Below the pieces are notes generated by a model. It did not search any database. It was not told where the DNA came from and saw only the letters and a program-made list of their open reading frames with translations. Below, one piece after another: positions 1,838 through 54,273 of a stretch of 64,000 nt of DNA (its first letter is position 1; every line of letters starts with the position of its first letter). The stretch is from an uncultured bacterium (GTDB taxonomy: Bacteria > Vulcanimicrobiota > CADAWZ01): assembly GCA_902790465.1 (NCBI GenBank), contig CADASF010000005.1, forward strand, positions 148,622 to 212,621, given 5' to 3'. Both the position numbers and the translations under genes were made by a program.

Positions 1838-1874
1838 GGCAATTTTCAAAAATTTAGCATTTTTGAAAATTGCC
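1838..1874. promoter_or_regulatory. Perfect 16-bp-arm palindrome in the pfp upstream region (candidate operator or RNA hairpin)
   Basis: GGCAATTTTCAAAAAT-ttagc-ATTTTTGAAAATTGCC. It lies ~240 nt upstream of the pfp start and ~48 nt downstream of the tal-rpiB stop. No T-tract follows. Confidence 0.45.
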
Positions 1875-1921
1875 TTGAGAAATAAAATTTCGTTAATTTA
1901 ATGTCTTTTTCCTTTGTTATA

Positions 1922-5004: not shown

Positions 5005-5251
5005 TTTTTAAAATATTGTTACATCAATTTTCAACTTTAGATTTATTCTTTATTTTTTCTAATTTTCTTTTATTTTTCTATTTATGTTGTCTATTTTTCT
5101 TGTTATAAAATAAAAATAAATTAATGAAAATAATAAGAGGATAAAAAATTTTCCTCTTGAATAAGTCTTTAAAGCGACGAAAAAATATTAAAATAAAATT
5201 AAATATTGGTTTGTCGCTATTATTTTACTGTAGGTTGAAAGGATTTTTGAT

Positions 5252-6514: not shown

Positions 6515-6535
6515 GTAATACATAAAAAATAAAAA

Positions 6536-19706: not shown

Positions 19707-19796
19707 TTATTTTGGTGTGAAAAAGTGATGTGGATTTTCTGCATCACTTTTTTATTTATAGATGTTAAAATAAATGACAGGACAGGGGTTATAAAA

Positions 19797-20498
19797 ATGA
19801 AAGCACTTATTTTATCTGCAGGGCTTGGAAAAAGACTTAGACCTCTTACAGATATAATTCCAAAGCCACTTGCCGACATAAATGGCAAGCCAATTATTGA
19901 CATTATTGTTGAAAAATTAAAAAATATAGGTGTTGACGAATTTGCCTTTAATCTACATCATCTTCCAGAAAAGATAAGAGAACATTTTTCTAATTCATCT
20001 GAAAAAATGATTTTTTCTTATGAAGATGAACTTCTTGATACAGGAGGGACACTTGCTTCTTTTTCTGACTGGTTAAATGAAGATGAATTTTTGATTGTAC
20101 ATAATGGAGATATTTATTCAGATATTGATATCAAATTTTTGTTGAATAAGGCTTTAGAAAAGAATGCTCCAACATTGGCATTGATTCCAAATGGACCTGT
20201 TGGAAATGTAAAATTTTTTCCTAAAACAGAAAAAATTGTTGATTTTAGAAATTCTTTAGGTATTGATGATTCTAAATATATAAATTGTACTTTTTCTGGA
20301 ATAGCTGTTTATCCAGCAAATTTTATAAAAGAAATGCCAAAGGGTAAATATTCTGTCATTGATTATATGATTGAAAAATTAAAAGAAAAAAAGGATATTT
20401 TTGGGGTTTTGTTTGAAAATATTTATTGGAATGATATAGGAACTCATGAAGCACTTGAAGCATGTAGAAAATTTGATTTAAGAAAAGGTGTAAAATGA
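19797..20498 (+). CDS. murU: Sugar-1-phosphate nucleotidyltransferase, MurU-like (N-acetylmuramate alpha-1-phosphate uridylyltransferase-like)
   Basis: The start was reassigned to MKALILSAGLGKRLRPLT, the nucleotidyltransferase G-loop. LDTGG and TFSGIAVY blocks are present, as in MurU. The 24 upstream codons in the ORF track have no RBS. Confidence 0.65.
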   Translation: MKALILSAGLGKRLRPLTDIIPKPLADINGKPIIDIIVEKLKNIGVDEFAFNLHHLPEKIREHFSNSSEKMIFSYEDELLDTGGTLASFSDWLNEDEFLIVHNGDIYSDIDIKFLLNKALEKNAPTLALIPNGPVGNVKFFPKTEKIVDFRNSLGIDDSKYINCTFSGIAVYPANFIKEMPKGKYSVIDYMIEKLKEKKDIFGVLFENIYWNDIGTHEALEACRKFDLRKGVK

Positions 20499-21460
20499 TA
20501 GGCTCTGAAAAGTTGAATGAATTTTTAAATGATTTTTTTGAAGGAAAAAAATTTGATTTTGATGAGATATGCAAGGGTGGATCAGATAGAAAATTTTATA
20601 GAGTTTCAAATTTGAATAAGTCTTGCATTTTATCAATTTCTTCAGATTTTGAAGAATATCGTTATTATTGTGCCTTTGCTCGTTATTTTAGGGAGCATGG
20701 CATTTGTATTCCTGAATTTTATTTTACTATTCCTGAGGAAGGAATAGCAGTTATGTTTGATGCAGGAACAGAATCTCTTTGTGATTATACACAGAAACAC
20801 TCTGATGGTGAAAATTTTGCAATTTATTCAAAAGTTATTGAGAAATTGTTCGATTTTCAGGAAATGGATTTTAATAATTGTCTTGAAATATCTGAAAGAC
20901 AATTTGATTATGAGGCTATTTTGTGGGAAACTTCGTATTTTTCACAATTTTTTTTAAATCAATATTCAAAAATAGAAGATATTCCAGATGAGGTAAAAGA
21001 GGAATTTTTAAATTTGGCAAAAATTCTTTCTAAATTGCCAAGAGTTCCAATGCATAGGGATTTTCAATCACAAAATATTTTTATTAAAGATGGTGAAATA
21101 TACTTTATAGATTTTCAGGGAGCAAGATTGGGAAACAGATTTTATGATTTAGCTTCCCTTATAAGAGATCCTTATGTTAAATTGAGTCGTGGAACTAAAC
21201 ATTCTCTTGAAAATATATTTTTGGAAAAATTGGCAGATAAAACAGGTGAAAAATATTCATATTTGATGAATATGTTCTCTTTAAATTCTGCTTCAAGATT
21301 GATGCAAGCTCTTGGAGCTTATGCCAATTTAGGGCTAAATAAACATAAAACGCAATTTTTAAATTACATAGAACCTGGATTGAAAAATTTGTCTATTGTT
21401 TTAGAAAATTGTTCAATATTGAAAAATACTTATAATTTTTTATCAAACAGGGTTATTTAA
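20495..21460 (+). CDS. amgK: Aminoglycoside-phosphotransferase-fold kinase, AmgK-like anomeric MurNAc/GlcNAc kinase (or choline-kinase-like)
   Basis: It has the APH/ChoK catalytic loop HRDFQSQNIFI and the FIDFQGA metal-binding motif. An ATGA overlap with the upstream nucleotidyltransferase gene indicates translational coupling. Confidence 0.6.
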   Translation: MIGSEKLNEFLNDFFEGKKFDFDEICKGGSDRKFYRVSNLNKSCILSISSDFEEYRYYCAFARYFREHGICIPEFYFTIPEEGIAVMFDAGTESLCDYTQKHSDGENFAIYSKVIEKLFDFQEMDFNNCLEISERQFDYEAILWETSYFSQFFLNQYSKIEDIPDEVKEEFLNLAKILSKLPRVPMHRDFQSQNIFIKDGEIYFIDFQGARLGNRFYDLASLIRDPYVKLSRGTKHSLENIFLEKLADKTGEKYSYLMNMFSLNSASRLMQALGAYANLGLNKHKTQFLNYIEPGLKNLSIVLENCSILKNTYNFLSNRVI

Positions 21461-21515
21461 TAATTAGATAGAATATAAAAAGTTGAAATTAAAGAAAATG
21501 TCGGAGGATTTTTTT

Positions 21516-23171
21516 ATGTTGAAAAATTTAACTGCAGCTCTTATTGTTGCAGGTGTCATGACTACAGCCGCATTTGCTCAAAATGTAGATGTAAAATCAG
21601 CTATAAATGATTTATCAAATAGAAGTGGATCTGTTCGTCAAAATGCAGTAATGATTTTAGGTTCTTCAAATGATAGAAGCGTTGTTTCCAATATTGAAAG
21701 ATTGGCTTACGATTCAGATTCTGGAGTTAGAACAGCTGTATGTTGGGCTCTTGGTCAATTTAAATCTCCGACAAGTGAAAATGTTTTAAATTCGCTCGCA
21801 AGAGATTCAAGACCAGAAGTTAGACAGGCTGCTGTAAACGCACTTGGAAATTACAAAAGTGTTGCAACAGGAGAAACTTTGATTAGAGCCACCTATGATT
21901 CAGATGTAAATGTTAGAAAAAGTGCTATAAATTCACTTGCTATAGTAAAATATGAGCTTGCAGGTCCTAGACTTTCAACTCTTCTCTCTGATTCTAATCC
22001 AGATGTCAGAGCAGCAGCTGCTATAGCCATGAAGAGCATGAATTATAGTGCTCCTTCTTCAATGGTTGCCAATAAATTAAAAGACCCAGATTCAAGAGTT
22101 AGAACTGGTGCCGCACAGAATTTAGGAAATTCAGGAAAAGACGATAATATTTCTATCATTGTTCCAGGATTAAGTGATTTAAATCCTTCAGTAAGAGCTA
22201 ATGCCGCAACTTCTTTGGGAGATACAAAAAGTGACAAGGCTATTCCTTATCTTGTAAAAGCTCTTGGTGATAGAACTGATAGTGTTGGTCTTTCAGCTGC
22301 TGCAGCACTTTCAAAAGTTGGACCTTCATCTGTTCCACAAATTGTTGACAAACTTGAATCTTCAGAAACTCGTGTTCAAAAACATTGTATAAGAGCTCTT
22401 GCAGGAATGGGTGAAACAAATGTTGATCTTCTTTCCGAATATTCAAAAAGACCAGAGTTAAGAGAAATTTCTATTTGGGGACTTGGAGAGACAAAATCTT
22501 CAAAAGCATTCCCTGCAATTTTTGATGGTTTTTCTGATAATGATGAAAAAATTCAACTCACAGCATCAGAAGCTATGGGTAAGGTTGGTTCATCTGTTCT
22601 TGAAAATTTGAAGAAAGAAAAAGAAAATCCAAATGAAATAGTTAGAAAAAATATAGCAAAATCTTTGGGATTTATGCCTTATGAAGAAGATGTTGCTAAA
22701 TTTCTTGTCGAGTTGATGGCAGATGATAAGGAAACTGTAACAGCTGAGGCTTCTGTATCACTTTCTAAATATGGTGAATCAGTAAAACCTCTCTTGTTGG
22801 AAACATTGAAATCAAATGATGAAATGCAGAGAACAGGTGCTATAAATGCTCTTGCATTGATGGGAAAAGAATGTGCTCCAACACTTAGAGAATGTTTAAA
22901 AGACAAAAGTTCTAAAGTTAGAGCTGGTGCTGCTTTAGGTCTTGGACAAATGGGAGATACTGTTTGTGCAAATGATATAGTACAACTTTTTGAAAATGAC
23001 AATGATCCAGAAGTAAAGCGTGCATGTGCTTGGACTATTGGAAAAGTTTGTAAACCTTCAGATGAACTCATGAAAAGGCTTGTATTGGAAAAAACAAGAG
23101 CTGGTGGTAAGAAACTCCCTGCACTTCAAAAGACAATAGAAGATACAATAAGAATTTTTGAAGGTAAATAA
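21516..23171 (+). CDS. Secreted PBS-lyase HEAT-repeat protein
   Basis: The start was reassigned to MLKNLTAALIVAGVMTTAAFA, a signal peptide with a GGAGGA RBS 7 nt upstream. It contains about 15 tandem HEAT-like repeats (D..VR..A..ALG). Confidence 0.7.
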   Translation: MLKNLTAALIVAGVMTTAAFAQNVDVKSAINDLSNRSGSVRQNAVMILGSSNDRSVVSNIERLAYDSDSGVRTAVCWALGQFKSPTSENVLNSLARDSRPEVRQAAVNALGNYKSVATGETLIRATYDSDVNVRKSAINSLAIVKYELAGPRLSTLLSDSNPDVRAAAAIAMKSMNYSAPSSMVANKLKDPDSRVRTGAAQNLGNSGKDDNISIIVPGLSDLNPSVRANAATSLGDTKSDKAIPYLVKALGDRTDSVGLSAAAALSKVGPSSVPQIVDKLESSETRVQKHCIRALAGMGETNVDLLSEYSKRPELREISIWGLGETKSSKAFPAIFDGFSDNDEKIQLTASEAMGKVGSSVLENLKKEKENPNEIVRKNIAKSLGFMPYEEDVAKFLVELMADDKETVTAEASVSLSKYGESVKPLLLETLKSNDEMQRTGAINALALMGKECAPTLRECLKDKSSKVRAGAALGLGQMGDTVCANDIVQLFENDNDPEVKRACAWTIGKVCKPSDELMKRLVLEKTRAGGKKLPALQKTIEDTIRIFEGK

Positions 23172-23193
23172 TTTATTATAATAATTGTTAAAA

Positions 23194-23233
23194 TTAAGAA
23201 CTCGCAATTAATTTTACGAGTTCTTAATTTTTT
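23194..23233 (+). terminator. Rho-independent terminator after HEAT-repeat gene
   Basis: TTAAGAACTCG-caattaatttta-CGAGTTCTTAA is followed by TTTTTT. Confidence 0.7.
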
Positions 23234-23261
23234 GTTTGTTTGTCATTAATATAACTTGTTG

Positions 23262-23389
23262 TGTTATTTAAAAATAGTAGTTTTTCTTATAAAGTTCCAT
23301 AATTATTATTCTTAGTTTTTAGGTATAAGTCGCTCACTAGTTCTTTTTTTTCCGCATATTATAGTTATAATTGCAAGAATCGTTCGCCG
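23262..23389. repeat. ~125-bp intergenic repeat element, copy A (begins with the TAACTTGTTGTGTTATTTA motif)
   Basis: It is ~93% identical to 63818..63941. An inverted copy of the terminal motif (TAACTAACACAACGA) lies at 23435..23449. Confidence 0.8.
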
Positions 23390-23495
23390 ACTTACACCGT
23401 AAAAACTCTTTTACCTGCTAAATAGATAAAAAAATAACTAACACAACGATTTGAAATAATATTATAAAAAATGTTGAAAAGAAGGACTTAAAAAA

Positions 23496-24890
23496 ATGAA
23501 ACACATACACATGATTGCTATTTGCGGAACTGGCATGGGAGCTTTTGCAGGTCTTCTCGTACAGTCTGGTTATAAAGTTACTGGCTCTGATCAAAATGTA
23601 TATCCTCCAATGAGTACAAAATTAATGGAATTGGGAATAAAATTGATGTCTCCATTTTCAGCTGAAAATATAGCAGATAAGCCTGATTTAGTTATTGTTG
23701 GAAATGCTGTTAGAAGAACAAATCCAGAGGCTATTGCTGTTATGGACAGTGGTATTCCATATATGTCTTTTCCACAAGCACTTGGTGAATTTTTCTTAAA
23801 AGACAGAAAATCACTTGTTGTAGCAGGAACACATGGTAAGACAACAACATGTTCAATGACAGCATGGATTCTTGAACATGCCCAAAAAGACCCAAGTTTT
23901 TTGATTGGTGGAGTTTTAAATAATTTTGATAGCAACTGCAAGCTCGGAAAAGGTGAATATTTTGTTGTTGAAGGTGATGAATATGATACAGCATTTTTTG
24001 ACAAAGGACCAAAATTCATGCACTATGCTCCAACGAGTGCTATTTTGACAAGTGTTGAATTTGACCATGGCGATATTTATAAAGATATCGACCACATAAA
24101 AAGTGCTTTTTCAAAATTTTTAAAATTGATACCAAAAGATGGTTATTTGATTGCATGCAAAGATTTTGTCCATGTCAATGAGATTCTTCCAGAAGCCTCA
24201 TGTAATGTTGAGACTTATGGTTTTTCTGAAGGTGCTGATTGGACTGCTGAAAACATAAAATTGGGTGTTGAAAGTTCTTATGATCTTACTTACAAAGGCA
24301 AAAAATTGTGTGAAGTTGTTTTAAAAGTACCTGGAAAACACAATATTTTAAATTCTGTTGCTGCTTCAGCTCTTCTCTATCACAAGGGAGTTACACCACA
24401 GGAATGTTCAGATGCTTTGAAAGAATATACAGGAGTTAAAAGACGCCAAGAAGTAAGAGGAATTGTAAATGGAATAACTGTACTTGACGATTTTGCACAT
24501 CATCCAACAAAAGTAAAAGCAACTGTTGATGCAATTAAGTCAAAATATCCAAATAATAGAGTTTGGGCTATTTTTGAGCCTCGCACAAATTCAAGTAGAA
24601 GGGCATTTTTCCAAAAAGACTATGTAAATTCTTTTGATTCTGCAGATTTAATTGTAATTGCCGATGTTTTTAATAAAGAACAAATCGACGAAACAGAAAG
24701 ATTCAGCAGTGAAAAACTTTCAAGAGATCTTGTTGAAAGAGGCAAAAATTCAAAGTGTATCCCAAATGCAGATGAGATAGTGAAATATGTCGCTGAAAAT
24801 GCTTCTTCTGGTGATGTGATATTGATCATGTCAAATGGCGGTTTTGACAACATCCATGAAAAATTGTTGGAAGAATTGAAGAAACATTAG
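23496..24890 (+). CDS. mpl: UDP-N-acetylmuramate:L-alanyl-gamma-D-glutamyl-meso-diaminopimelate ligase (murein peptide ligase)
   Basis: The N-terminal ICGTGMG...GSDQNVYPPMST block closely matches E. coli Mpl (DANVYPPMST). The Mur ligase P-loop GTHGKTTT is present. Length is 464 aa. Confidence 0.8.
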   Translation: MKHIHMIAICGTGMGAFAGLLVQSGYKVTGSDQNVYPPMSTKLMELGIKLMSPFSAENIADKPDLVIVGNAVRRTNPEAIAVMDSGIPYMSFPQALGEFFLKDRKSLVVAGTHGKTTTCSMTAWILEHAQKDPSFLIGGVLNNFDSNCKLGKGEYFVVEGDEYDTAFFDKGPKFMHYAPTSAILTSVEFDHGDIYKDIDHIKSAFSKFLKLIPKDGYLIACKDFVHVNEILPEASCNVETYGFSEGADWTAENIKLGVESSYDLTYKGKKLCEVVLKVPGKHNILNSVAASALLYHKGVTPQECSDALKEYTGVKRRQEVRGIVNGITVLDDFAHHPTKVKATVDAIKSKYPNNRVWAIFEPRTNSSRRAFFQKDYVNSFDSADLIVIADVFNKEQIDETERFSSEKLSRDLVERGKNSKCIPNADEIVKYVAENASSGDVILIMSNGGFDNIHEKLLEELKKH

Positions 24891-25027
24891 TGAGTTTGTT
24901 AACACGACTTAGACTCCGAGTTAATAAAAATTTAACAAAAATTGAAAAAATTTAACATCTCTTTCTTATTTTTGTTCTTTTTTATGTTTTAGAATATATC
25001 TAAGAAAAAATAAGGAGTAGATGTTTT

Positions 25028-25663
25028 ATGAATACAAAAATTTTTGAAAAAATAAAAAGATATGGTGTAAAGGCACTGACACAATCTGAACTTTTGACAG
25101 CAACTTCACTTGATAAAGGTGATATTTACAATAGGCTTATGGCTTCTGTTGATGTTGATGAGTTTCAAACTTTTGATTTAAACTATTCAAAAGATAAGAA
25201 ACTTGCTGTATATATGTGTTTTTCAGAGATGATAAGAAGAAGAAAAGCATGTACAGATAGAAAAATAAGATGCACATCTGATGCTGTTCCATATTTTTTG
25301 GAATATGCAGATATGAATAAGGAATATTTTATAGTATTGACATTAAATGGGGCAAATGAACTGATAAAAAAACATGTCATAACTATTGGACTTGCAAATA
25401 AAACACAGATTCACCCAAGAGAGATTTTTTCTGAGGCTATAGCAGACAGAGCATGTTTTATCATTGCAGGACACAATCATCCATCAGGTTCATTAGAACC
25501 AAGTGTTGAAGACCTTGCAGTAACTGAAAAAATAAAAGTTACAGGTGATATAATAGGAATCAAAGTTTTAGACCATATAATTTTTTCAAAAAAAGGTCAT
25601 TTCAGTATTTTTCACTTAGATTCACTTGAAGAAAAAAATAGGAAATTATTTTATGAAAATTGA
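25028..25663 (+). CDS. radC: RadC-family JAB/MPN domain protein (UPF0758)
   Basis: The JAMM motif HNHPSGSLEPSVED and an N-terminal HhH-like LTQSELLATSL are present. AAGGAG RBS. Confidence 0.85.
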   Translation: MNTKIFEKIKRYGVKALTQSELLTATSLDKGDIYNRLMASVDVDEFQTFDLNYSKDKKLAVYMCFSEMIRRRKACTDRKIRCTSDAVPYFLEYADMNKEYFIVLTLNGANELIKKHVITIGLANKTQIHPREIFSEAIADRACFIIAGHNHPSGSLEPSVEDLAVTEKIKVTGDIIGIKVLDHIIFSKKGHFSIFHLDSLEEKNRKLFYEN

Positions 25664-26270
25664 AGTAAAATATTCAAAAGAACCATATAACGAGGCAATA
25701 CAAAAAAAAGAGAGTTCCATAAAACTGCTTGAATACAATGGCAATAATATTCCAAAAGATATGGCTACTTTTTATGATTTGTATTGGAATGAAAATGGAT
25801 TTTATGCTCATTTTATATCTTTTCACAATGGACAGATTAAATTTTGTCCAAAAGAAACTGAAATTTCACAAAATGGAAAGACTTTTAAACTTTGGGCTAT
25901 AAGTGAAGTTTGTGAAATATTTATTTCACATGACAAATTGGATTTTTACAGAGAATTTGAATTTGCACCTGATGGTCGCTTTCTCGATATTGATATTAAA
26001 TATATTGAAGGAAATAGAAAAACTGATTTTTATTGGGTATCAAATCTTGAATATAAATCAGAAGTTCATGAGAATTACTGGGATGGTTTTGCCTTTATTC
26101 CTTGGAGTGCTTTTGACAATAAATTTCCAAAAGTTGGCGATATCTGGCATGGAAATTTTTATAGAATTTTGACAAGAGATGAAAAGGAATTATATTTGGC
26201 TTGGAATCCTGTATATAAAATTAATTTTCATCAACCACAATATTTTGGGGAGATTCTTTTTGTAAAATGA
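25653..26270 (+). CDS. Hypothetical protein (no recognisable motifs)
   Basis: The start was reassigned to MKIEVKYSK with an AGGAAA RBS. It overlaps the radC 3' end by 11 nt. Aromatic-rich soluble protein. Confidence 0.5.
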   Translation: MKIEVKYSKEPYNEAIQKKESSIKLLEYNGNNIPKDMATFYDLYWNENGFYAHFISFHNGQIKFCPKETEISQNGKTFKLWAISEVCEIFISHDKLDFYREFEFAPDGRFLDIDIKYIEGNRKTDFYWVSNLEYKSEVHENYWDGFAFIPWSAFDNKFPKVGDIWHGNFYRILTRDEKELYLAWNPVYKINFHQPQYFGEILFVK

Positions 26271-26854
26271 GTTTACCGACAAACAGTGAATCAGATTCAG
26301 TAAATGCAATTAATATTTTAATTGATGAGCCACAACATTTTAAAGCTGAAAAAACGATAGATTTTTCTGGGGCTATTGGGGGGGCAATTTTTGTCTTTTT
26401 TATGTTTGGATTTCCTTTTTTACTATCTCTTGGAAAATCAACTCCTGAATCTTCAGTATCTCCTCTAATTTTTGTTTTAATATTACCTATTGTATTTTTT
26501 CTTTTTTATTATAATACTCAACATCAAAGACATTCTGTTATAGAAGTGAAAAATGATATTATTTCTACATTTGAAAAAACAATTTTTGGAAAAATAGTAA
26601 ATAATGTACAGGCTAAACTTGACATAAATATGATGACAGAAGTAAAAAAAATTGTTCATGAAAAAATTATAGAAAGATATACTAATAAAGAAAAAGATGT
26701 TGTTACTTATGTTGTAATATATCGAACTATAAATTTCAAAGATCAAAATTATAAATCTTGTGATATTATTTCAGGGCTTAGTGAAGAAGAGGCAAATTTT
26801 TTATCAAATAAAATAAATGAAATGATTTTAAGAAAAAGACAACAGGTTAGTTAG
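26267..26854 (+). CDS. Hypothetical membrane protein (2 TM plus a soluble C-terminal domain)
   Basis: ATGA start/stop overlap with the upstream gene. It has two hydrophobic helices between residues 35 and 85. Confidence 0.5.
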   Translation: MSLPTNSESDSVNAINILIDEPQHFKAEKTIDFSGAIGGAIFVFFMFGFPFLLSLGKSTPESSVSPLIFVLILPIVFFLFYYNTQHQRHSVIEVKNDIISTFEKTIFGKIVNNVQAKLDINMMTEVKKIVHEKIIERYTNKEKDVVTYVVIYRTINFKDQNYKSCDIISGLSEEEANFLSNKINEMILRKRQQVS

Positions 26855-26862
26855 GAAAAAAA

Positions 26863-27798
26863 ATGTTCTCGTTTTTATTTAAGAAAAAAAATAAAGATAC
26901 AGATGATAAATTTGAGAAAACTGAATATTCACAAAATGAGTTTCTAAAATTGGCTAAAAATAGGAATGAAGCAAAATATAAATATCTATTTCAAGAGCCT
27001 TTTGTAAATTTTGATGGTAAAACAAAAGACACAGACCGTGATTTTTCAGATATTGTTGCTGAATTGATTGAAAGTGGAAAGATAAATTTTTCTTTAAATC
27101 CTATTGACAAAAATTCAGAAGTTAAATTGGAAACTCCCCTGCATTTAAAAACAGAAAAAGTTGATTATGCCTCTTATACTAATGGCAAATTTATTGGTTC
27201 TGAAGAAAAAATTGCAGGTCGTCTTTTTGAAATTAATGCTACAGCAGAGATATTTGGTGAATTATGTGAAGTTTGTGATTTTTCAGTTCCTGTAAATAAC
27301 AATGGAAAAGAAAATTCAGATGGAAAAATAGATGTTATTTTTTCTTCAAAGGGATTTCATGTTCCTGATTTTCTCAATACAAATGATAAAAAGTTTTTGG
27401 AGTCTGAGGATCCTTTCTGTCAATATATTGCTTGGATATATGGGAATTTAAAAAAATATCCTAAAAGCCTTGTTGTTTCATCTGTTAAATATAGTGGTAA
27501 TAATGACAGTTTGTTAAAATGTATCCTTGAAATTGAAACATTTTACAGGAAAATACCTCATGATAGATTGAGAGCCTGTTACCATAGAGACTGGATAAGA
27601 AAAGCTATACTTGTATTTGATGATTCAAGAGCCTATTCCGAATATCTTTCATTTGGTTTTAATTCTGTAAAAAAATTGCTTGAAAAATGGGAAATTGCTG
27701 TTTTGACATTAAAAGAGTATTATCTTGATTGTGAGCCACAGTTGAATGAATATTCAATAAATTCTATTTCTCATATATACAGGGCTTATAAAAAATAA
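26863..27798 (+). CDS. Hypothetical protein
   Basis: It begins 9 nt after the upstream stop and ends at a strong bidirectional terminator. No known motifs. Confidence 0.5.
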   Translation: MFSFLFKKKNKDTDDKFEKTEYSQNEFLKLAKNRNEAKYKYLFQEPFVNFDGKTKDTDRDFSDIVAELIESGKINFSLNPIDKNSEVKLETPLHLKTEKVDYASYTNGKFIGSEEKIAGRLFEINATAEIFGELCEVCDFSVPVNNNGKENSDGKIDVIFSSKGFHVPDFLNTNDKKFLESEDPFCQYIAWIYGNLKKYPKSLVVSSVKYSGNNDSLLKCILEIETFYRKIPHDRLRACYHRDWIRKAILVFDDSRAYSEYLSFGFNSVKKLLEKWEIAVLTLKEYYLDCEPQLNEYSINSISHIYRAYKK

Positions 27799-27820
27799 TG
27801 GTGAGTAGCCCAAAAAAATA

Positions 27821-27856
27821 GGCTGTGATAAAAGTATTTTTTCACAGCCCATTTTT
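27821..27856. terminator. Bidirectional terminator between the convergent 26863 and 27857 genes
   Basis: GGCTGTGA...TCACAGCC forms the stem, with an A-run upstream and a T-run downstream. Confidence 0.7.
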
Positions 27857-28978
27857 TCACTTCTTTGTTGGATAAATAATATAGCCAATTCCTCCGCTAT
27901 TTATAAACCAGATTTTTTCAAATTCCTCTCTTTTATATGACAAAATTCCGTCTTCTTCTTTTCTAAATCCACCGTCTGCACAGAGAATATCTCCATTTTT
28001 ATCAAATCCCATTATGACTATAACATGTCCATCTGTTTCATAATTTGGATCATCTGAAATGTCATTTTTATTCACACTTATACATGCAATAACTGGCATT
28101 TTTTTATCTATATATTCTTTTACATCTTCAAAACTTCTAAAATGTCTTACATATCCCTCAAATCCATATTGATGGGCTGATTGTACAGCTCTCCACCACA
28201 TTCCATACATTTTATATCTTTTGTCATAAGCAATTTTTGCAAGTTCTGCTGTTTTTATGTCAACTCCATAATAATCCATGACAGTTGCCGTTGAAACTAC
28301 ACTGCAAATTTCACTTGATATTTTTTTATCTTCCCAACCTTGTGAACGAAATGGAACAGAAAAATAAGAATTTTTTCCTAAATTTGTTTTTTCGTATAGT
28401 TTTAATTTTTTGTCTCCTCTATGTGTTGAAGCAGATATATTTAGTGAGGAAAATTCGATTGTATCTTCACAATTTGGATCAAAAATAAAACAAAATTGAA
28501 TCTTATTAAATTTTTTGTTTTTAGATAGTATGTAATCTGTTTCTATTGATATTCCAGAATATTTAAATGGATTTTCAAATTTACCGTCTATTTTTGAATT
28601 ATCAAGATATGATTTGAGTTTTTTATAATCTGACATTTCTCCCCATTCGCCCATTAGTAACCAAGGAGATATTTGATTTTCGCCATCTTCAAATCTTACA
28701 AAAACATAAAATGATGATTTATCAGAACATTTAATATTCCATGAGGGAACACATTCTTCAAAATTAAAGGGCAATTTTATAATAGGGGAGAGTATATAAG
28801 AATTTTTATTTTTTATTATTATTTTGTTATCTTCAAAAATAGAATCTTTTAATGTGAATTGTTTTAAATCGTTTTCTTTGTATATTATAAAAATATCGCT
28901 ATAGTCGATTGCATAGGAAGTATTAAATAAAATAAAAAATATGAATATAATTGATAAAATAAAATTATTTCTGCACAT
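27857..28978 (-). CDS. Secreted protein with C-terminal papain-like (peptidase C39-like) domain
   Basis: It has an N-terminal signal/anchor. The C-terminal region has a candidate Cys in CSVVSTATVMDYYG and a candidate His in ETDGHVIVIMGFD in C39-like order. The call is tentative. Confidence 0.5.
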   Translation of the reverse strand: MCRNNFILSIIFIFFILFNTSYAIDYSDIFIIYKENDLKQFTLKDSIFEDNKIIIKNKNSYILSPIIKLPFNFEECVPSWNIKCSDKSSFYVFVRFEDGENQISPWLLMGEWGEMSDYKKLKSYLDNSKIDGKFENPFKYSGISIETDYILSKNKKFNKIQFCFIFDPNCEDTIEFSSLNISASTHRGDKKLKLYEKTNLGKNSYFSVPFRSQGWEDKKISSEICSVVSTATVMDYYGVDIKTAELAKIAYDKRYKMYGMWWRAVQSAHQYGFEGYVRHFRSFEDVKEYIDKKMPVIACISVNKNDISDDPNYETDGHVIVIMGFDKNGDILCADGGFRKEEDGILSYKREEFEKIWFINSGGIGYIIYPTKK

Positions 28979-29122: not shown

Positions 29123-30529
29123 ATGGGATTAATAAAAGCAGGAATTGATGCTGTAATGGGAACTTTAAAAGACCAATGGAAAGAATATTTCTATTGTGAA
29201 GCTCTTCCAGTTGATGTACTTGTAAGTAAAGGACAAAAGAAAGTACAAAGAGGCGGAAATAAAGGTGATGACAATGCTATAAGTGATGGTTCAGTAATTG
29301 CTGTAGCAGACGGTCAATTTATTATAATTGTTGAAAATGGACTTATTGTAGATTTTTCAGGAGAACCTGGAGAATTTGTATATAGAAACAATGTACAACC
29401 CAGTCTTTTTTCAGGAGAGGATGGTCTTGGTGAAAAATTGAAAAAGACTTTCTCTCAAATTGGAAAAAGATTCACATTTGGTGGGGAAACACCAGGAGTT
29501 CAAAGAGTTTATTTCTTCAACAAAAAAGAGATAATGGGAAACAAATATGGCACTCCAAATCCTGTTCCATTCAGAGTTGTTGACAAAAATATTGGATTAG
29601 ATGTTGACATATCAATAAGATGTCATGGTGAGTATTCTTACAGAATAACCGATCCTATGTTATTCTACAAAAATGTTTGTGGAAATGTAGAATATGAATA
29701 TAAGCGTTCACAGATTGACAGCCAGTTAAAATCAGAATTGATGACAGCTCTTCAACCTGCATTTGCAAAAATTTCCGAGATGGGAATAAGATATAGTGCA
29801 CTACCAGGTCACACATTTGAAATTGCAGATGCACTCAACGAAGTTCTTTCTAAGAAATGGAGAGAAAAAAGAGGAATTGAGATAGTTGAATTCGGAGTAA
29901 ATGGAGTAAATGCTTCTCCTGAAGATGAAGCTATGATCAAACAAATGCAGAAAAAAGCTGTCTACAGAAATGCAGATATGGCAATGGCTGGAATGGTAGA
30001 TGCTCAAAATGAAGCATTAGTAGGTGCAGCAAACAATAAAGCAGGAGCTATGCAGGGATTCATGGCAATGAATATGATGCCAGGTGGCGGTGGTGCCAAT
30101 TTGGGTAACCTCATAATGCAACAACAACAGATGCAACAACAGCAACAAATGCAACAGCAAGCTCCTCCAGCAGCTCAAAAAGCAGGTTGGACTTGTTCAT
30201 GTGGTGCTGTAAATACAGCTAAATTCTGTGCTGAATGTGGCAAACCACAACCAGCTCCAAAAGCAAGTTGGACTTGTTCATGTGGTGCTGTAAATACAGG
30301 TAAATTCTGTGCTGAATGTGGTGCAAAACAACCAGCTCCAAAAGCAAGCTGGACTTGTTCATGTGGTGCTGTAAATACAGGCAAATTCTGTGCTGAATGT
30401 GGTGCAAAACAACCACAAGACCTTCACTATAAATGTGATAAATGCGGTTGGGAACCAACACCTGGTGCAAAGATTCCAAAATTCTGTCCAGAATGTGGCG
30501 ATCCAATAAATGAAAACGATTTAGTTTAG
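29123..30529 (+). CDS. SPFH/Band-7-like protein (YdjI-like) with Met/Gln-rich linker and three tandem C-terminal zinc ribbons
   Basis: It has an N-terminal MGLIKAGIDAVMGT SPFH-like domain. The C-terminus repeats WTCSCGAVNTxKFCAECG three times, then a fourth CDKCG...CPECG ribbon. AAGGAGA RBS. Confidence 0.6.
   Translation: MGLIKAGIDAVMGTLKDQWKEYFYCEALPVDVLVSKGQKKVQRGGNKGDDNAISDGSVIAVADGQFIIIVENGLIVDFSGEPGEFVYRNNVQPSLFSGEDGLGEKLKKTFSQIGKRFTFGGETPGVQRVYFFNKKEIMGNKYGTPNPVPFRVVDKNIGLDVDISIRCHGEYSYRITDPMLFYKNVCGNVEYEYKRSQIDSQLKSELMTALQPAFAKISEMGIRYSALPGHTFEIADALNEVLSKKWREKRGIEIVEFGVNGVNASPEDEAMIKQMQKKAVYRNADMAMAGMVDAQNEALVGAANNKAGAMQGFMAMNMMPGGGGANLGNLIMQQQQMQQQQQMQQQAPPAAQKAGWTCSCGAVNTAKFCAECGKPQPAPKASWTCSCGAVNTGKFCAECGAKQPAPKASWTCSCGAVNTGKFCAECGAKQPQDLHYKCDKCGWEPTPGAKIPKFCPECGDPINENDLV
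30178..30414 (+). repeat. Three tandem 81-nt near-identical repeats encoding zinc-ribbon modules
   Basis: Repeat units begin at ~30178, 30259 and 30340, with only a few substitutions between them. Repeat symmetry produces a spurious antisense ORF. Confidence 0.9.
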
Positions 30530-30542
30530 TTAGGATAAAAAA

Positions 30543-31691
30543 ATGGACGAAAACGAACCAAAAATAGAAAAAACAAAAGAAGAAACAGACAGAAAATGTC
30601 CTGACTGTGGTGGAGTTATGGATTTTGATCCTTCTACAGGAGGATTGACATGTCCATATTGTGGTCATCAAGAGGAAATAAAAGTAGGAAAAAAAGTTCA
30701 ACCTACTGGAAAAAGTGAAGATGGCAAAGATAATGAAGAAAATTGGCCAGAAGAAACAAGTGTAAAAGAACAAGATTTTAGTCTTGCAGAAACAAAAGAA
30801 AACTGCGATTGGGGAGCTGCAAAAAAGACTATTATATGTAAATCTTGCGGTGCTGAGTCAATATATGATGAAAATCAAATAGCAAATTCATGCCCATACT
30901 GTGATTCCAACCAAGTAATGGAAGAAAAGGGCAAAAATCAATTAGCACCTGGTGGTGTATGCCCATTTGCTATAAAATCTGACAAAGCAGAAGAAAACTT
31001 CAAAAAGTGGATTAAAAGTCAATTTTGGGCTCCAAATATTGTTCAGAAAAAAGCAAGAGCTGATTCATTTACTGGTGTATATATTCCATATTGGACATTT
31101 GATACAAATACATTTTCAAAATATACTGCTCAATATGGTATTGACTATGAAGAAGAAGATAGCGAAGGAAATAAAACAACTCGTACTGATTGGTATGATA
31201 CAAGAGGTCGCTATAAAGAATTCATAGATGATTTTCCTGTCTGTGCTACAAATAGATATAAAAAAGAACTTTTGAAAAAGATTCTTCCATTTGGTACAGA
31301 TAAAAGTAAACCATATAAACCAGAATATGTGGCAGGATTTATAGCAGAAAGATATACAATAGGTTTAAAAGATGGTTGGGAAGAAGGTCAAAAAGGTATA
31401 ACTGAACATCTAAAAGACAAAATAGAACAAGTTATACGCAAAGAAGAAAATGCAGACCATGTCAGACATCTCAATGTTTCAACTGTTTATAATGATTTGA
31501 AGTACAAATATCTATTGCTTCCTGTTTGGCTTTCATCTTTCAAACATAATGGAAAAATATATAATTTCATGGTAAATGGTGAAACAGGAAAAGTTGGAGG
31601 AGAATGTCCAGTTTCAGGTTGGAAAGTTGCTATTGCTATAGCTATTGCTATATTAGTTCTTTGGTTTTTATTCTCATGTCTTGGAAGTTAA
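30543..31691 (+). CDS. Zinc-ribbon protein with C-terminal TM anchor (YdjG-like partner of SPFH protein)
   Basis: It has paired CxxC motifs (CPDCGG...CPYCGH; CKSCGA...CPYCD) and a C-terminal TM helix VAIAIAIAILVLWFLF. It starts 13 nt after the upstream gene. Confidence 0.5.
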   Translation: MDENEPKIEKTKEETDRKCPDCGGVMDFDPSTGGLTCPYCGHQEEIKVGKKVQPTGKSEDGKDNEENWPEETSVKEQDFSLAETKENCDWGAAKKTIICKSCGAESIYDENQIANSCPYCDSNQVMEEKGKNQLAPGGVCPFAIKSDKAEENFKKWIKSQFWAPNIVQKKARADSFTGVYIPYWTFDTNTFSKYTAQYGIDYEEEDSEGNKTTRTDWYDTRGRYKEFIDDFPVCATNRYKKELLKKILPFGTDKSKPYKPEYVAGFIAERYTIGLKDGWEEGQKGITEHLKDKIEQVIRKEENADHVRHLNVSTVYNDLKYKYLLLPVWLSSFKHNGKIYNFMVNGETGKVGGECPVSGWKVAIAIAIAILVLWFLFSCLGS

Positions 31692-31755: not shown

Positions 31756-32883
31756 TTATTTTGTAAGCTCGTAGTAATCAACTCTATTATTATCTTTTAT
31801 TACAAGTAGCTTGTTTATTTCTTCAATAAAAGCAACAGGATATGGCTTTGAAAGTGTCAAAACTTTTTGCATTTTTCCATCTTGTCTTAGATATACATTG
31901 AATTCATTGCCTTTTTGACCATAAAACCAAACTCTGCCATCATTGAATATCTTTCCTGCTAAAGGATGTACCTTACTTGATATTTCTGTTTTTTCTCCAT
32001 TTGAAACGAGAAAAACCTTGTTTTCACCTTTATTAGAATTTGTTCCAAATAAGCATTTAGAAGCATCTGAAGATAAATCAAGAGGTTTTATTGCTTGTTT
32101 TGCTCCGTGTAATTTTTTAACTTCTCCATTTTTATTTACTAAAAATATATAATTTACAAAATTTTTATCAGTTGGTTTTGGTCTATTTGTTATTACACAT
32201 AGACAAGAGTCTGATTCATTTGTTTTTACAAAACTTGTCATCAATTTTTTTAGGTCTTCTTTATTTTTTACAATGGTGCTTCCTGTTTTTTCTATAAGTC
32301 CATTTTGTGTAAATACATTTGTCATAGAAAATGGGTCTGTACATATATCCATTATAACTGTATCTCTTACATAATGACCAGTATCCCATTTATCAAGGTA
32401 TGAATAGGCATTTGTATCATTAAAAAATGAAAAAGTAGAAATTGGAGAAATTGCAAATCCTTCTTTATCTTTTGCTGGATTTGAATATACTTCATTCCAT
32501 TTTTTTGTTTTTGTATTTAAAGTCCATAATTTACCAGGATATTTTGAATAGACAAGAGCATTATTGGCATTTGTTGATATAGCAAATTTATTGAAATCTG
32601 TAAAAGGACATGAACCTTCTCTTACTATAGATCTTTTAAAAGGATCATATATATGCCATCTCAACTTTTTTGTTGTTTTATTTCTACCCAAAAAGAATAT
32701 TTCACCTGTTTTTGAAGCTACAGAAGGTGCTAATAATTCATGTTTTATTTGTTCTTGTGTCTTCTGTTCAAGGTTTTCTTTTGTAAAAGATGTTGCTTCT
32801 TTCAAATTAATATCTTTTGCATGGGCAACCATTATTGAAAACAATCCAAAAATACACAAAAATAAAACAGCTATTTTTTTCAT
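31756..32883 (-). CDS. Secreted hypothetical protein (tandem paralog 1)
   Basis: It has a signal peptide MKKIAVLFLCIFGLFSIMVAHA. It is ~65% identical over its full length to the adjacent paralog and is 375 aa long. Confidence 0.55.
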   Translation of the reverse strand: MKKIAVLFLCIFGLFSIMVAHAKDINLKEATSFTKENLEQKTQEQIKHELLAPSVASKTGEIFFLGRNKTTKKLRWHIYDPFKRSIVREGSCPFTDFNKFAISTNANNALVYSKYPGKLWTLNTKTKKWNEVYSNPAKDKEGFAISPISTFSFFNDTNAYSYLDKWDTGHYVRDTVIMDICTDPFSMTNVFTQNGLIEKTGSTIVKNKEDLKKLMTSFVKTNESDSCLCVITNRPKPTDKNFVNYIFLVNKNGEVKKLHGAKQAIKPLDLSSDASKCLFGTNSNKGENKVFLVSNGEKTEISSKVHPLAGKIFNDGRVWFYGQKGNEFNVYLRQDGKMQKVLTLSKPYPVAFIEEINKLLVIKDNNRVDYYELTK

Positions 32884-32899
32884 ATATTTTCTCCTTTAA

Positions 32900-34027
32900 T
32901 TATTTTGTAAGCTCGTAATAATCAGCTCTTTTATTGTCTTTTATTACAAGAAGTTTGTTTACATCTTCAATAAAAGCGACTGGATAAGGCTTTGAAAGAG
33001 TTAAAACTTTTTGCATTTTTCCGTCTTTTCTTAAATATATGTTAAATTCATTTCCTTTTTGACCATAAAACCAAATTCGTCCATCATTAAATATATTTCC
33101 AGATAGAGGATGTATGTTATCAAAAATTTTTATTTTTTCATTGTTTGAAACAAGATAAACTTCGCTTTCTCCTTTTAAAGATATTGTTCCAAACATATAT
33201 TTAGAAGCATCAGAAGAAAGAGCAAGAGGTTTTATCATATTTGGACATCCATGCACTTTTTTTACATTGCCATTTTTATTGACCAAGAATATGTAATTTA
33301 CAAATCCTTTATCTGTCTGTCTTGGTCGATTTGTTATAACACAAAGACATGAATCTGAACTATTTGTTGTTATGAATGTTGTCATCAATTTTTTGATATC
33401 TTCTTTATTTTTGACAATAACATTTCCTGTTTTTTCTATCAATTCTCTTTGGGTATATGTCTTATTCATAGAAAATGGATTTACCGCAATATTAGTTATT
33501 ACTGTATCTCTTACATAATGATCTTTATCCCATTTATCAAGATATGAATAGGCATTTGTATCATTAAAAAATGAAAAAGATGAAATTGGAGAAATTGCAA
33601 GTCCTTCTTTATTGTTTTCAGGATTTGAATAGACTTCATTCCATTTTTTCTTATCTGTATTTAATACCCAAAGTCGCCCTGGATATTTTGAATAAACAAG
33701 AGCATTACCTGCATTTGTTGAAATAGCAAATTTATTAAAATCGGTAAAAGGGCAATCGCCTTCTTTGATAATTTTCTTTTTAAAAGGATTGTAAATGTGC
33801 CATCTTAATTTTTTTGTATTTTTATTCCTGCCAAAAAAGAATATATCACCTGTTTTTGAAGCAAGACATGGACCTAATAAACTATGTTTTATCTGTTCTT
33901 TTGTTTTTTGTTCGAGGTTTTCTTTTGTAAAATATGTAGATTCTTTCAATTCACCTTTTTTTTCAGCTGAAATTGCTGTAGAGAACATAGTAATTATAAG
34001 TAATAACATTACTGCTATTTTTTTCAT
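32900..34027 (-). CDS. Secreted hypothetical protein (tandem paralog 2)
   Basis: It has a signal peptide MKKIAVMLLLIITMFSTAISA and the same length and block structure as paralog 1. Confidence 0.55.
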   Translation of the reverse strand: MKKIAVMLLLIITMFSTAISAEKKGELKESTYFTKENLEQKTKEQIKHSLLGPCLASKTGDIFFFGRNKNTKKLRWHIYNPFKKKIIKEGDCPFTDFNKFAISTNAGNALVYSKYPGRLWVLNTDKKKWNEVYSNPENNKEGLAISPISSFSFFNDTNAYSYLDKWDKDHYVRDTVITNIAVNPFSMNKTYTQRELIEKTGNVIVKNKEDIKKLMTTFITTNSSDSCLCVITNRPRQTDKGFVNYIFLVNKNGNVKKVHGCPNMIKPLALSSDASKYMFGTISLKGESEVYLVSNNEKIKIFDNIHPLSGNIFNDGRIWFYGQKGNEFNIYLRKDGKMQKVLTLSKPYPVAFIEDVNKLLVIKDNKRADYYELTK

Positions 34028-41043: not shown

Positions 41044-41103
41044 CCTGTAAGAAAGGGAAAATTTTGTAAAATAAGAAATAATATATAAAAAAATAAAAAA
41101 CAT
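41044..41103 (+). repeat. Duplicated ~55-nt upstream segment (copy 1) ahead of paralog gene 41210
   Basis: GAAAGGGAAAATTTTGTAAAATAAGAAATAATATATAAAAAAATAAAAAACATG is repeated at 42817..42870. Confidence 0.85.
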
Positions 41104-41209
41104 GGGGCTGTGAAAAAAGTATTTTTTTATATAATTTTAGTAAATTAACTCGTTGTGCTAGTTATTTTTATTTATTACTTATTAAAATGATATAGCTGAG
41201 TAGAGACAT

Positions 41210-42237: not shown

Positions 42238-42502
42238 AAATGTTTCTCCCTCCTTTGTTTCTTTTAAATATTTTACAGGTTCTCTCAATTCGCTCTTTCA
42301 AGTTCTGCTCCTGCACAAACTCTTCCTTTAATTATATGTGAATAAAGGTAAAGAATCAATAAAATTTATAATATTATTTCTAATAATTCAAAAGTCAAAA
42401 AATTGACTTGTGTTATGTAAATTTAACTCGTTGTGTTAGTTAATAAAAGTAAATAAAAATTTGCTCTAAACTATCCAATATATGCCTGTATACTGCCACT
42501 TT

Positions 42503-42672
42503 GTCATTGCGAGGCTTTAGCCGTGGCAATCTAAGCCTGTAAATTATAAATTTACTTAAAAATTGAGTCGATCGTCTGTATTTGGAATATTGTCCTCAAT
42601 CTACTTAATAAATTACTAAATTTAAATTAAGCGTTTGAGATTGCCACGGTCGCACAGCTCCCTCGCAATGAC
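42503..42672. other. Long-range inverted repeat / candidate structured ncRNA: two perfect 12-bp helices enclosing ~105 nt
   Basis: GTCATTGCGAGG (42503-14) pairs with CCTCGCAATGAC (42661-72). CCGTGGCAATCT (42521-32) pairs with AGATTGCCACGG (42638-49). A small internal loop lies between the helices and there is an AT-rich interior hairpin (ATTGAG...CTCAAT). No ORF lies inside. Confidence 0.4.
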
Positions 42673-42784
42673 ATCGCTTCTAAATAGTGGCTATTTTGGT
42701 TACGGAAATCAATTTTTGTTATTGATTTTGCTGTTAAATAATTTTCAAAAATACGATACAATGTTAATATTTTTTATTTTGTAG

Positions 42785-54059: not shown

Positions 54060-54086
54060 CTTCAGTCTTAAAAGCCTGGAATCAAT

Positions 54087-54163
<77 letters not shown>

Positions 54164-54170
54164 TTAAAAT

Positions 54171-54245: not shown

Positions 54246-54273
54246 CTTGACAAAATAAATAAAGTTTTTACAT

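What the first reader, a model, noticed from the sequence alone, without database searches (positions are those of the whole stretch)
25028..27798. RadC-led four-gene operon with three overlapping genes of unknown function, facing a papain-like secreted protein
A canonical full-length RadC (HhH plus JAB with HNHPSGSLEPSVED) is followed on the same strand by three ORFs of 205, 195 and 311 aa with no recognisable motifs. The first overlaps radC by 11 nt, the second has an ATGA overlap and the third starts 9 nt later. The second encodes a 2-TM protein. The unit ends at a strong bidirectional terminator opposite a secreted C39/papain-like protein. Tight coupling implies co-function. RadC-family JAB proteins are frequent components of mobile-element and defence-associated modules, yet none of the partners resembles known systems.
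Basis: partly seen in the sequence, partly recalled or inferred. Interest (0 to 1): 0.55.

Follow-up and report, generated by a model that had tools for sequence, protein, structure and literature searches.

The report
Lineage-specific radC operon with variable tail
The four tightly packed genes are real, but relatives show that only radC, a sugar-binding-module-like gene and a fast-evolving membrane gene stay together, the fourth gene is an optional, probably inactive nuclease look-alike, and nothing marks the set as a defence system.

Summary
The geometry is as described. radC, a 205-aa, a 195-aa two-TM and a 311-aa ORF lie on one strand with an 11-nt overlap, an ATGA overlap and an 8-nt gap. 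They end at a strong hairpin opposite a secreted C39-like peptidase.

The closest genomes are rumen MAGs, one labelled Candidatus Xenobia. Across them a ~100-nt upstream region plus radC, ORF2 and an ORF3-type 2-TM gene is kept in four different chromosomal neighbourhoods. Slot four holds ORF4, an S41 peptidase or nothing. ORF3 is truncated in one close relative (dN/dS 0.53). A more distant genome has ORF2-like, ORF4-like and S41 without radC.

I found no PADLOC, phage, plasmid or mobile-element signal. My verdict is a lineage-restricted chromosomal operon of unknown biochemical role and modest interest.

The parts
24926..25027 (+). Conserved upstream region (putative promoter and leader) that travels with the cassette. 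It contains two TTTAACA boxes 21 nt apart and an AGGAG ribosome-binding site.
   Evidence: DNA homology with L038 and L040, which have different upstream genes, starts at window 24926 in both. The five-way alignment shows invariant blocks AAAATTTAACAAA...TTAACAT...TTTTA.AAT...AGGAG. No Rfam family matches here. Promoter function is inferred, not shown.
25028..25663 (+). radC: a RadC-family JAB/JAMM protein of 211 aa with an intact metal site and a degenerate N-terminal HhH region.
   Evidence: PF04002 E 2.5e-35. It falls below the NCBIfam RadC equivalog cutoff, 125 against 180. E132, H149, H151, S159 and D162 are invariant in the alignment with canonical RadCs, while GIGxAKA is missing. dN/dS is 0.07.
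25653..26270 (+). ORF2: a CBM9_2-type β-sandwich protein of 205 aa without a signal peptide, translationally coupled to radC by an 11-nt overlap.
   Evidence: Pfam PF16011 at 25.0 bits, exactly the cutoff. Homologues P0008-P0014 carry PF16011. The family profile hits PDB 4jpq at E 1.2e-11 and the Thermotoga xylanase CBM9 1i82 at E 0.027. There is no hydrophobic N-terminus. dN/dS is 0.18-0.28.
26267..26854 (+). ORF3: a fast-evolving 2-TM membrane protein of 195 aa with a conserved C-terminal helix motif G[LI]S..EAN[FY]L..KIN..I.
   Evidence: Hydropathy profile. Only relatives at 64% identity or more were found by sequence search. Positional counterparts of 248 aa (L005) and 283 aa (L040) share the architecture and the motif. 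Versions shortened by deletions exist: 94 aa in L010 and 163 aa in P0016. dN/dS is 0.53. The AF2 model has pLDDT 47 and is unusable.
26863..27798 (+). ORF4: a PD-(D/E)xK (NucS-like) fold protein of 311 aa with a degenerate active site (E114, D157, S207-V-K209, E223) and a ~38-aa insertion.
27813..27857 (.). Bidirectional intrinsic-terminator-like hairpin closing the unit and the convergent C39-like gene.
   Evidence: MFE -19.3 kcal/mol on the + strand and -24.6 on the - strand, z -4.7 and -6.9, with 0 of 200 shuffles as stable. In L038 a different hairpin occupies the same position after ORF4.

Best explanation
This is a chromosomal operon, apparently vertically inherited and restricted to a group of rumen bacteria; one relative is labelled Candidatus Xenobia. 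It is not a defence or mobile module.

The invariant core is a ~100-nt upstream region, radC, the CBM9-like gene ORF2 and an ORF3-type 2-TM gene. The fourth position is optional and holds ORF4, an S41 peptidase or nothing.

Proposed working:
- RadC is an active JAMM-type metallohydrolase whose own DNA-binding HhH module has decayed.
- It is made in fixed proportion with the cytoplasmic CBM9-like β-sandwich protein, which supplies ligand or substrate recognition.
- The pair may be held at the membrane by the 2-TM protein.
- ORF4 is a nuclease-fold protein that has lost its catalytic Glu. It most likely binds nucleic acid, or acts as a scaffold, rather than cutting.

Shown: gene structure, coupling, folds, motif states, conservation pattern and selection.
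Inferred: complex formation, membrane tethering, non-catalytic status of ORF4, and the substrate, which is unknown.
For: - Core conservation: radC, ORF2 and a 2-TM gene, with the 11-nt overlap, occur in four distinct flanking contexts.
  - HEAT-mpl...C39 in the window and L010.
  - rtcB-mpl...S41-TerD in L005-7 and L009.
  - A 301-aa gene...rplY/prs in L038.
  - A class-I aminoacyl-tRNA synthetase gene...penicillin amidase in L040.
- DNA homology begins at the same base, 24926, in L038 and L040. The upstream region is conserved.
- Purifying selection acts on radC (0.07), ORF2 (0.18-0.28) and ORF4 (0.10).
- The JAMM residues are intact and the HhH is degenerate.
- ORF2 is CBM9-like with no signal peptide.
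- ORF4 has the PD-(D/E)xK fold. The ExK position reads S-V-K in ORF4, K-L-H in P0018 and S-L-K in P0019, so it is not conserved in the subfamily.
- ORF2-like (41% identity) next to ORF4-like (45%) in the more distant L030 shows the pair is old.
- There is no PADLOC, phage, plasmid, viral-contig, integrase or repeat signal.
Against: - No experiment or structure shows a RadC-ORF2 complex.
- The substrate is unknown.
- Some restriction enzymes, recalled from memory, work with an SxK motif and an acidic residue from a neighbouring helix. E223 is conserved, so ORF4 could still be active.
- The cassette sits at different loci in genomes that are 95% identical in DNA. ORF3 also evolves fast with indels. 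Both features would fit a conflict system too.
- Taxon assignment rests on one record title.
- Most relatives are MAG or metagenome contigs, so absence of a gene from a locus does not prove absence from the genome.
Confidence: 0.45

Rival explanations
1. Cell-envelope or peptidoglycan-turnover module. The CBM9-like protein recognises a glycan or muropeptide-type ligand, RadC acts as a JAMM (iso)peptidase on it, and the locus is functionally tied to the S41 C-terminal processing peptidase and to mpl.
For: - An S41/PDZ CtpB-like peptidase directly follows ORF3-like or ORF4-like genes in three lineages, with 4-nt overlaps or 11-44 nt gaps (L005, L026, L030).
- mpl (TIGR01081, 445 bits) lies immediately upstream in two contexts.
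- NTP_transferase and APH genes, resembling murU and amgK, lie upstream in the window.
- ORF2 belongs to a carbohydrate-binding-module family.
- radC lies beside mreBCD in many bacteria (my own knowledge, not tested here).
Against: - RadC, ORF2 and ORF4 have no signal peptide, whereas all three S41 proteins do, so the compartments differ.
- The mpl adjacency is lost in L038 and L040, and S41 is absent from the window locus.
- ORF4's fold is typical of nucleic-acid enzymes.
- Distant ORF2 homologues have unrelated neighbours.
Confidence: 0.2
2. A novel defence or conflict cassette. RadC and a membrane protein act as sensor and effector with a nuclease-fold protein, and the variable third and fourth slots reflect arms-race turnover.
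For: - ORF3 is fast-evolving and prone to indels (dN/dS 0.53; variants of 94, 163, 195, 248 and 283 aa).
- The fourth slot is variable.
- The cassette is found at a different chromosomal position in a genome whose cassette is 95% identical in DNA.
- Canonical members of ORF4's family sit beside WYL, AAA and MBL-fold genes, and one is fused to SIR2 next to SbcCD, SNF2 and PDDEXK_7 genes.
Against: - PADLOC gives only a JAB hit at E 0.014. Family members give only weak generic Cas4/NERD hits.
- The catalytic Glu of ORF4 is lost, and the motif is not conserved in its subfamily.
- The radC-ORF2 core is present in every related locus recovered and is under purifying selection, so it behaves as core rather than accessory.
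- No relatives occur in phages, plasmids or viral contigs.
- No mobility genes or boundary repeats.
- GC content (26-30%) is within the window's range.
Confidence: 0.12
3. Co-transcribed but functionally unrelated genes. The compact packing is genome streamlining, and the shared order is only inherited synteny.
For: - Differential loss shows the genes are separable: ORF4 is lost in L005 and L040, S41 is missing from the window, radC is absent in L030, and ORF3 is truncated in L010.
- Distant RadCs are single genes flanked by opposite-strand genes.
- Distant ORF2 homologues have no radC or ORF4 next to them.
Against: - The radC-ORF2 overlap and the upstream region survive at least three rearrangements whose breakpoints fall at the cassette borders.
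- ORF2-ORF4 adjacency is retained at 41-45% protein identity in L030 while all other neighbours differ.
Confidence: 0.18

Closest known systems
RadC/YicR family (Pfam PF04002, JAB/JAMM domain; UPF0758)
   Same: The JAB domain has an intact E...HxH...S..D metal-site motif. It is 35-47% identical over nearly its full length to ordinary chromosomal RadCs of Desulfobacteraceae and other MAGs.
   Different: The N-terminal HhH module is shortened and its GIGxAKA hairpin is lost. The protein scores below the NCBIfam equivalog cutoff. It is not in a maf-radC-mreB arrangement. It leads a lineage-specific operon in which a CBM9-like gene overlaps its stop codon.
CBM9_2 (Pfam PF16011) / family 9 carbohydrate-binding modules; PDB 4jpq (uncharacterised) and 1i82 (Thermotoga xylanase 10A CBM9-2)
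   Same: Profile-level sequence similarity: PF16011 in ORF2 and its homologues, 4jpq at E 1.2e-11 and 1i82 at E 0.027.
   Different: ORF2 is a stand-alone 205-aa protein without a signal peptide and not attached to a glycoside hydrolase. Its ligand is unknown. It is coupled to radC only in this lineage.
NucS/EndoMS and other PD-(D/E)xK restriction-endonuclease-fold nucleases
   Different: There is no sequence-level match to any solved structure, and Foldseek finds nothing significant. The ExK motif reads S-V-K, there is a ~38-aa insertion between the Asp strand and the (E)xK strand, and the N-terminal domain differs.
Unannotated family of ~240-aa PD-(D/E)xK proteins (P0020-P0154), often beside MBL-fold hydrolases
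   Same: ORF4 aligns over both halves at E 1e-32 to 1e-4 and shares E114, P143, D157, K209 and E223.
   Different: Canonical members keep ELK, lack the insertion, and have other neighbours: WYL, AAA and MBL-fold genes, or a SIR2 fusion. The ORF4 subfamily (window, P0018, P0019) sits instead with CBM9-like and S41 peptidase genes.

Membership tests
RadC family (PF04002 / UPF0758) | RadC-like JAB domain detectable by profile | tested here: met
   PF04002 E 2.5e-35, 121.5 bits against a cutoff of 22.1, residues 81-194.
RadC family (PF04002 / UPF0758) | JAMM metal-site motif E...HxH...S..D | tested here: met
   E132, H149, H151, S159 and D162 are invariant in the alignment with five other RadCs.
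RadC family (PF04002 / UPF0758) | N-terminal helix-hairpin-helix module, as in full-length 'equivalog' RadC | tested here: not met
   The GIGxAKA hairpin is replaced by LNYSKDKK and there are three deletions in the N-terminal region. NF000642 scores 125.5 bits against a cutoff of 180 and matches only from model position 64.
maf-radC-mreB housekeeping arrangement | radC flanked by maf and mreBCD | tested here: not met
   No Maf or MreB Pfam family appears among genes within about 10 kb on either side. The neighbours are mpl upstream and a C39-like peptidase downstream.
CBM9_2 (PF16011) | Profile match at or above the gathering score | tested here: met
   ORF2 scores 25.0 bits, equal to the cutoff of 25. 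Seven homologues carry precomputed PF16011. The family profile hits 4jpq at 1.2e-11 and CBM9 1i82 at 0.027.
CBM9_2 (PF16011) | Carbohydrate binding | not testable with these tools
ORF2 lacks a signal peptide, which is unusual for a polysaccharide-binding module.
PD-(D/E)xK nuclease superfamily | Restriction-endonuclease-like α/β core fold | tested here: met
PD-(D/E)xK nuclease superfamily | Catalytic D ... (D/E)xK motif | tested here: not met
   D157 is kept, but the ExK position reads S207-V-K209. It reads K-L-H in P0018 and S-L-K in P0019, whereas 90% or more of the aligned family have E and K.
NucS/EndoMS | Sequence-level homology including the N-terminal DNA-binding domain | tested here: not met
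Known anti-phage defence systems (PADLOC-DB 2.0) | Any component matching a defence-system model | tested here: not met
   The only hit is JAB at E 0.014 for RadC. ORF2, ORF3 and ORF4 have no hits. ORF4-family members give only weak generic Cas4/NERD hits.
Mobile genetic element / genomic island | Integrase or transposase, boundary repeats, relatives in phages or plasmids, deviant composition | tested here: not met
   No such Pfam families within about 10 kb. Only chance-level AT-rich repeats. No hits in plasmids, phages or viral contigs. GC content of 26-30% is like the surroundings.

The most novel reading that the evidence does not exclude
RadC, whose function has been unknown for decades, may work in this lineage as the catalytic half of a two-protein enzyme. 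Its substrate-recognition half would be a cytoplasmic CBM9-like β-sandwich that replaces RadC's lost HhH module. The complex would be tethered to the membrane by the ORF3-type protein. It would act on a glycan-bearing or muropeptide-like substrate, linking RadC to cell-envelope turnover (mpl and S41 CtpB neighbours) rather than to DNA repair.
Probability: 0.1. Interest if true: 0.65.

Novelty: new variant of a known kind. Interest (0 to 1): 0.3.

Why it matters
RadC is one of the most widespread bacterial proteins without a known function. A lineage in which its DNA-binding module has decayed, and in which a ligand-binding partner is always translationally coupled to it, is a natural handle for finding its substrate.

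The work also brings to light an unannotated PD-(D/E)xK family of about 240-aa proteins (138 representative clusters, no Pfam or NCBIfam model). It documents one branch of that family that looks catalytically dead. Otherwise the locus is an ordinary chromosomal operon and should not be counted as a candidate defence system.

Tried and rejected
- PADLOC and PHROGs scans of all four proteins gave nothing useful.
- Word-indexed homology searches made ORF3 and ORF4 look like near-ORFans. The exhaustive HMMER search overturned that for ORF4.
- The afdb50 library was unavailable.
- The AF2 model of ORF3 from a 4-sequence alignment had pLDDT 47 and was not used. A PH-like reading of its β-β-β-α...β-α pattern remains a guess.
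- Weak 8xMP and PrgI Pfam hits for ORF3 lie below cutoff, and the literature search for 8xMP found nothing relevant.
- I looked for a riboswitch or sRNA in the conserved leader and found none.
- I looked for boundary repeats or att-like sites and found only AT-rich chance matches.
- I looked for an S41 peptidase, TerD, RtcB and the 301-aa gene of the sister genomes in the 64-kb window and found none.
- I searched for relatives in phages, plasmids and viral contigs and found none. One viral scan with the wide ORF4 alignment could not be run.
- Literature searches for a newly established RadC function turned up only the nuclease/nucleic-acid-processing hypothesis and the 'misleading name' caveat.
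Full report
**Observation**

The region holds four same-strand ORFs:
- radC, 25028-25663, 211 aa.
- ORF2, 25653-26270, 205 aa from the ATG.
- ORF3, 26267-26854, 195 aa.
- ORF4, 26863-27798, 311 aa.

Independent gene calls on metagenome contigs that encode the identical proteins give the same four genes.

Each start is preceded by an AGGA/GGAG-type ribosome-binding site.

The unit ends at a hairpin at 27813-27857. It is much more stable than shuffled sequence on both strands (z -4.7 and -6.9) and is flanked by A and T runs, so it reads as a bidirectional terminator. The consensus scan missed it only because of its loop limit.

The convergent gene 27857-28978 is a Peptidase_C39_2 protein with a hydrophobic N-terminus. 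ORF3 has two hydrophobic segments.

Pairwise dN/dS against a close relative supports real coding for three genes: 0.07 for radC, 0.28 for ORF2 and 0.10 for ORF4. ORF3 is relaxed at 0.53.

**What the proteins are**

RadC:
- It has a strong PF04002 JAB domain and all JAMM residues.
- It falls below the NCBIfam full-length RadC cutoff.
- Aligned with ordinary RadCs, its N-terminal region is shortened and the GIGxAKA helix-hairpin-helix is gone.
- So 'canonical HhH plus JAB' is only half right.

ORF2:
- It is not motif-free. It matches Pfam CBM9_2 exactly at the gathering score, and its homologues carry PF16011.
- A profile of the family hits the uncharacterised structure 4jpq (E 1.2e-11) and the classical CBM9 of Thermotoga xylanase (E 0.027).
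- It lacks a signal peptide.

ORF4:
- It looked like an ORFan in the word-indexed search.
- An exhaustive HMMER search then found 138 representative clusters, mostly proteins of about 240 aa without any Pfam or NCBIfam model.
- Their alignment shows the motif set NRxEExIA ... DYQVPLK ... GKIDL ... LxELK ... LLRCxLEIxTYY.
- An AlphaFold model built on that alignment is confident, with pLDDT 85.8.
- Family members weakly hit PDDEXK_9, NERD, Cas4 and YhcG_C.
- In ORF4 the Asp is kept (D157), but the ExK reads S207-V-K209. In its two closest relatives it reads K-L-H and S-L-K. All three carry a ~38-aa insertion between the two catalytic strands.
- I read this subfamily as probably non-catalytic. 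This is an inference. Some restriction enzymes, as far as I recall, use SxK with a Glu supplied from a helix, and E223 is conserved here.

ORF3:
- It could not be assigned. It has only weak sub-threshold hits, and its model is unusable.

**Relatives and gene order**

The closest genomes are rumen MAGs, and one record is titled Candidatus Xenobia bacterium.

| Locus | Identity to the window | Gene order |
|---|---|---|
| L010 | Mpl 98.5%; ORF4 95.5% | Same order and flanks; ORF3 reduced to 94 aa by two in-frame deletions |
| L005-7, L009 | Mpl 97%, RadC 93%, ORF2 83% | rtcB - mpl - radC - ORF2 - 248-aa 2-TM protein - S41/PDZ peptidase - 160-aa secreted protein - TerD cluster; no ORF4 |
| L038 | RadC 99.5%, ORF2 96%, ORF3 90%, ORF4 94% | All four genes, but a 301-aa gene upstream and rplY/prs downstream |
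| L040 | RadC 94%, ORF2 80% | Class-I aminoacyl-tRNA synthetase gene - radC - ORF2 - 283-aa 2-TM protein, then convergent genes |

In L038 the DNA homology to the window runs exactly from 24926 to 27799 at 95% identity. A further block matches window 6532-1761 in the opposite orientation.

The 248-aa and 283-aa proteins are 33% identical to each other. They share with ORF3 the 2-TM architecture and the C-terminal motif G[LI]S..EAN[FY]L..KIN.

Homology with both L038 and L040 starts at the same base, 24926. The ~100 nt before radC are conserved in all five contexts, including two TTTAACA boxes.

The stable unit is therefore the upstream region plus radC, ORF2 and an ORF3-type gene. Slot four is variable.

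More distant relatives:
- In L030 (38% GC), an ORF2-like gene (41% identity) is followed by an ORF4-like gene (45%) and an S41 peptidase, with no radC.
- In L026-28, an ORF4-like gene (44-45% identity) is followed by S41, a HAD phosphatase and a 475-aa gene.
- More remote ORF2 homologues (29-46% identity) have neither radC nor ORF4 nearby.
- The nearest RadCs outside the group (35-47% identity) are single genes with opposite-strand neighbours.

**Interpretation**

The pattern fits an old ORF2-(ORF3)-ORF4-S41 neighbourhood. In one genus-level group it became headed by radC, and it has since lost members differentially.

The radC-ORF2 coupling is the only link that never breaks within that group. 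It survives at least three rearrangements whose breakpoints fall at the cassette borders. That is good evidence for co-function of those two genes and weaker evidence for the third.

ORF4 is dispensable for the others. It is absent in L005 and L040 while ORF2 stays under purifying selection.

All three S41 proteins have signal peptides, whereas RadC, ORF2 and ORF4 do not. A direct protease-substrate relation is therefore unlikely, and the S41 link may simply be inherited synteny.

**Defence or mobile element?**

- PADLOC gives nothing beyond a marginal JAB hit.
- No relatives exist in the phage, plasmid or viral-contig collections.
- No mobility genes lie within about 10 kb.
- There are no boundary repeats.
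- Composition is unremarkable.
- The one nuclease-like protein has a degenerate site.

Three points speak for a conflict role. ORF3 evolves fast and is prone to indels. The cassette has relocated in a near-identical genome. Canonical members of ORF4's family sit in defence-like company, beside WYL, AAA and MBL-fold genes, or fused to SIR2 beside SbcCD, SNF2 and PDDEXK_7 genes. I rate this reading at about 0.12.

**Comparison with known families**

- RadC meets the JAB and JAMM criteria but not the HhH one.
- ORF2 meets the CBM9_2 profile criterion. Its ligand is untestable here.
- ORF4 meets the fold criterion of PD-(D/E)xK but fails the catalytic-motif criterion. It is not a NucS by sequence.
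- The literature still treats RadC as functionally unresolved. [quoted passage not shown]

**Verdict**

This is a real, compact operon with partly recognisable components, restricted to a lineage of rumen bacteria.

It is not a RadC-led four-gene obligate system and not a recognisable defence module.

The most useful leads are the invariant radC/CBM9-like coupling in a RadC that has lost its HhH module, and the unannotated PD-(D/E)xK family to which ORF4 belongs.

Interest is 0.3. Novelty: a new variant of a known kind.

Noticed in passing
L033:2144-2875, L037:1626-2417, L035:7001-8836: Canonical members of ORF4's unannotated ~240-aa PD-(D/E)xK family, with ELK intact, sit directly beside MBL-fold (Lactamase_B/RMMBL) hydrolases. 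One is in an AAA-WYL-X-MBL arrangement. One Paenibacillus protein is a SIR2 fusion next to SbcCD, an SNF2 helicase and a PDDEXK_7 gene. This could be an undescribed two-gene nuclease or defence module.
   Followed up: partly
window 19775-24890: NTP_transferase (233 aa) and APH-family kinase (321 aa) genes, resembling murU and amgK, then a HEAT-repeat protein and mpl. Together they look like a peptidoglycan-recycling cluster just upstream of the cassette. The murU/amgK names are my inference from the Pfam families only.
   Followed up: no
window 25028-25663 compared with L010:8001-8630: Synonymous divergence between the window and L010 is 0.79 in radC, against 0.18-0.30 in HEAT, mpl and ORF4. 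This suggests a recombination mosaic across radC to ORF3.
   Followed up: no
window 1761-6532 and L038:6527-11313: In L038 the cassette lies about 2 kb from a block that in the window is 18 kb away and inverted. The rplY/prs genes between them have no match in the window. So there are several rearrangements between genomes whose cassettes are 95% identical in DNA.
   Followed up: partly
window 29123-31691: An SPFH/Band_7_1 protein carries three tandem zinc-ribbon repeats (SWTCSCGAVNTGKFCAECGAKQP...) and a Gln-rich linker. It is followed by a multi-zinc-ribbon protein with a C-terminal TM helix.
   Followed up: no
window 31756-34027: Two adjacent 375-aa paralogous genes on the minus strand have no Pfam family. 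Next to them is a gene with a PF26745 (SPM) hit. This comes from the gene table of L001, shifted into window coordinates.
   Followed up: no
window 53985-54767: A cluster of eight tRNA genes on the + strand.
   Followed up: no
window 41095-41169 and 42413-42699: Short intergenic sequences are 82-95% identical to intergenic stretches of L005 and L006, beside the rtcB and TerD genes. They may be a small dispersed repeat.
   Followed up: no
L005:11206-16615: In the sister genomes the radC operon is followed by a tellurite-resistance-like cluster: five TerD-domain genes and a YceG_bac gene.
   Followed up: no
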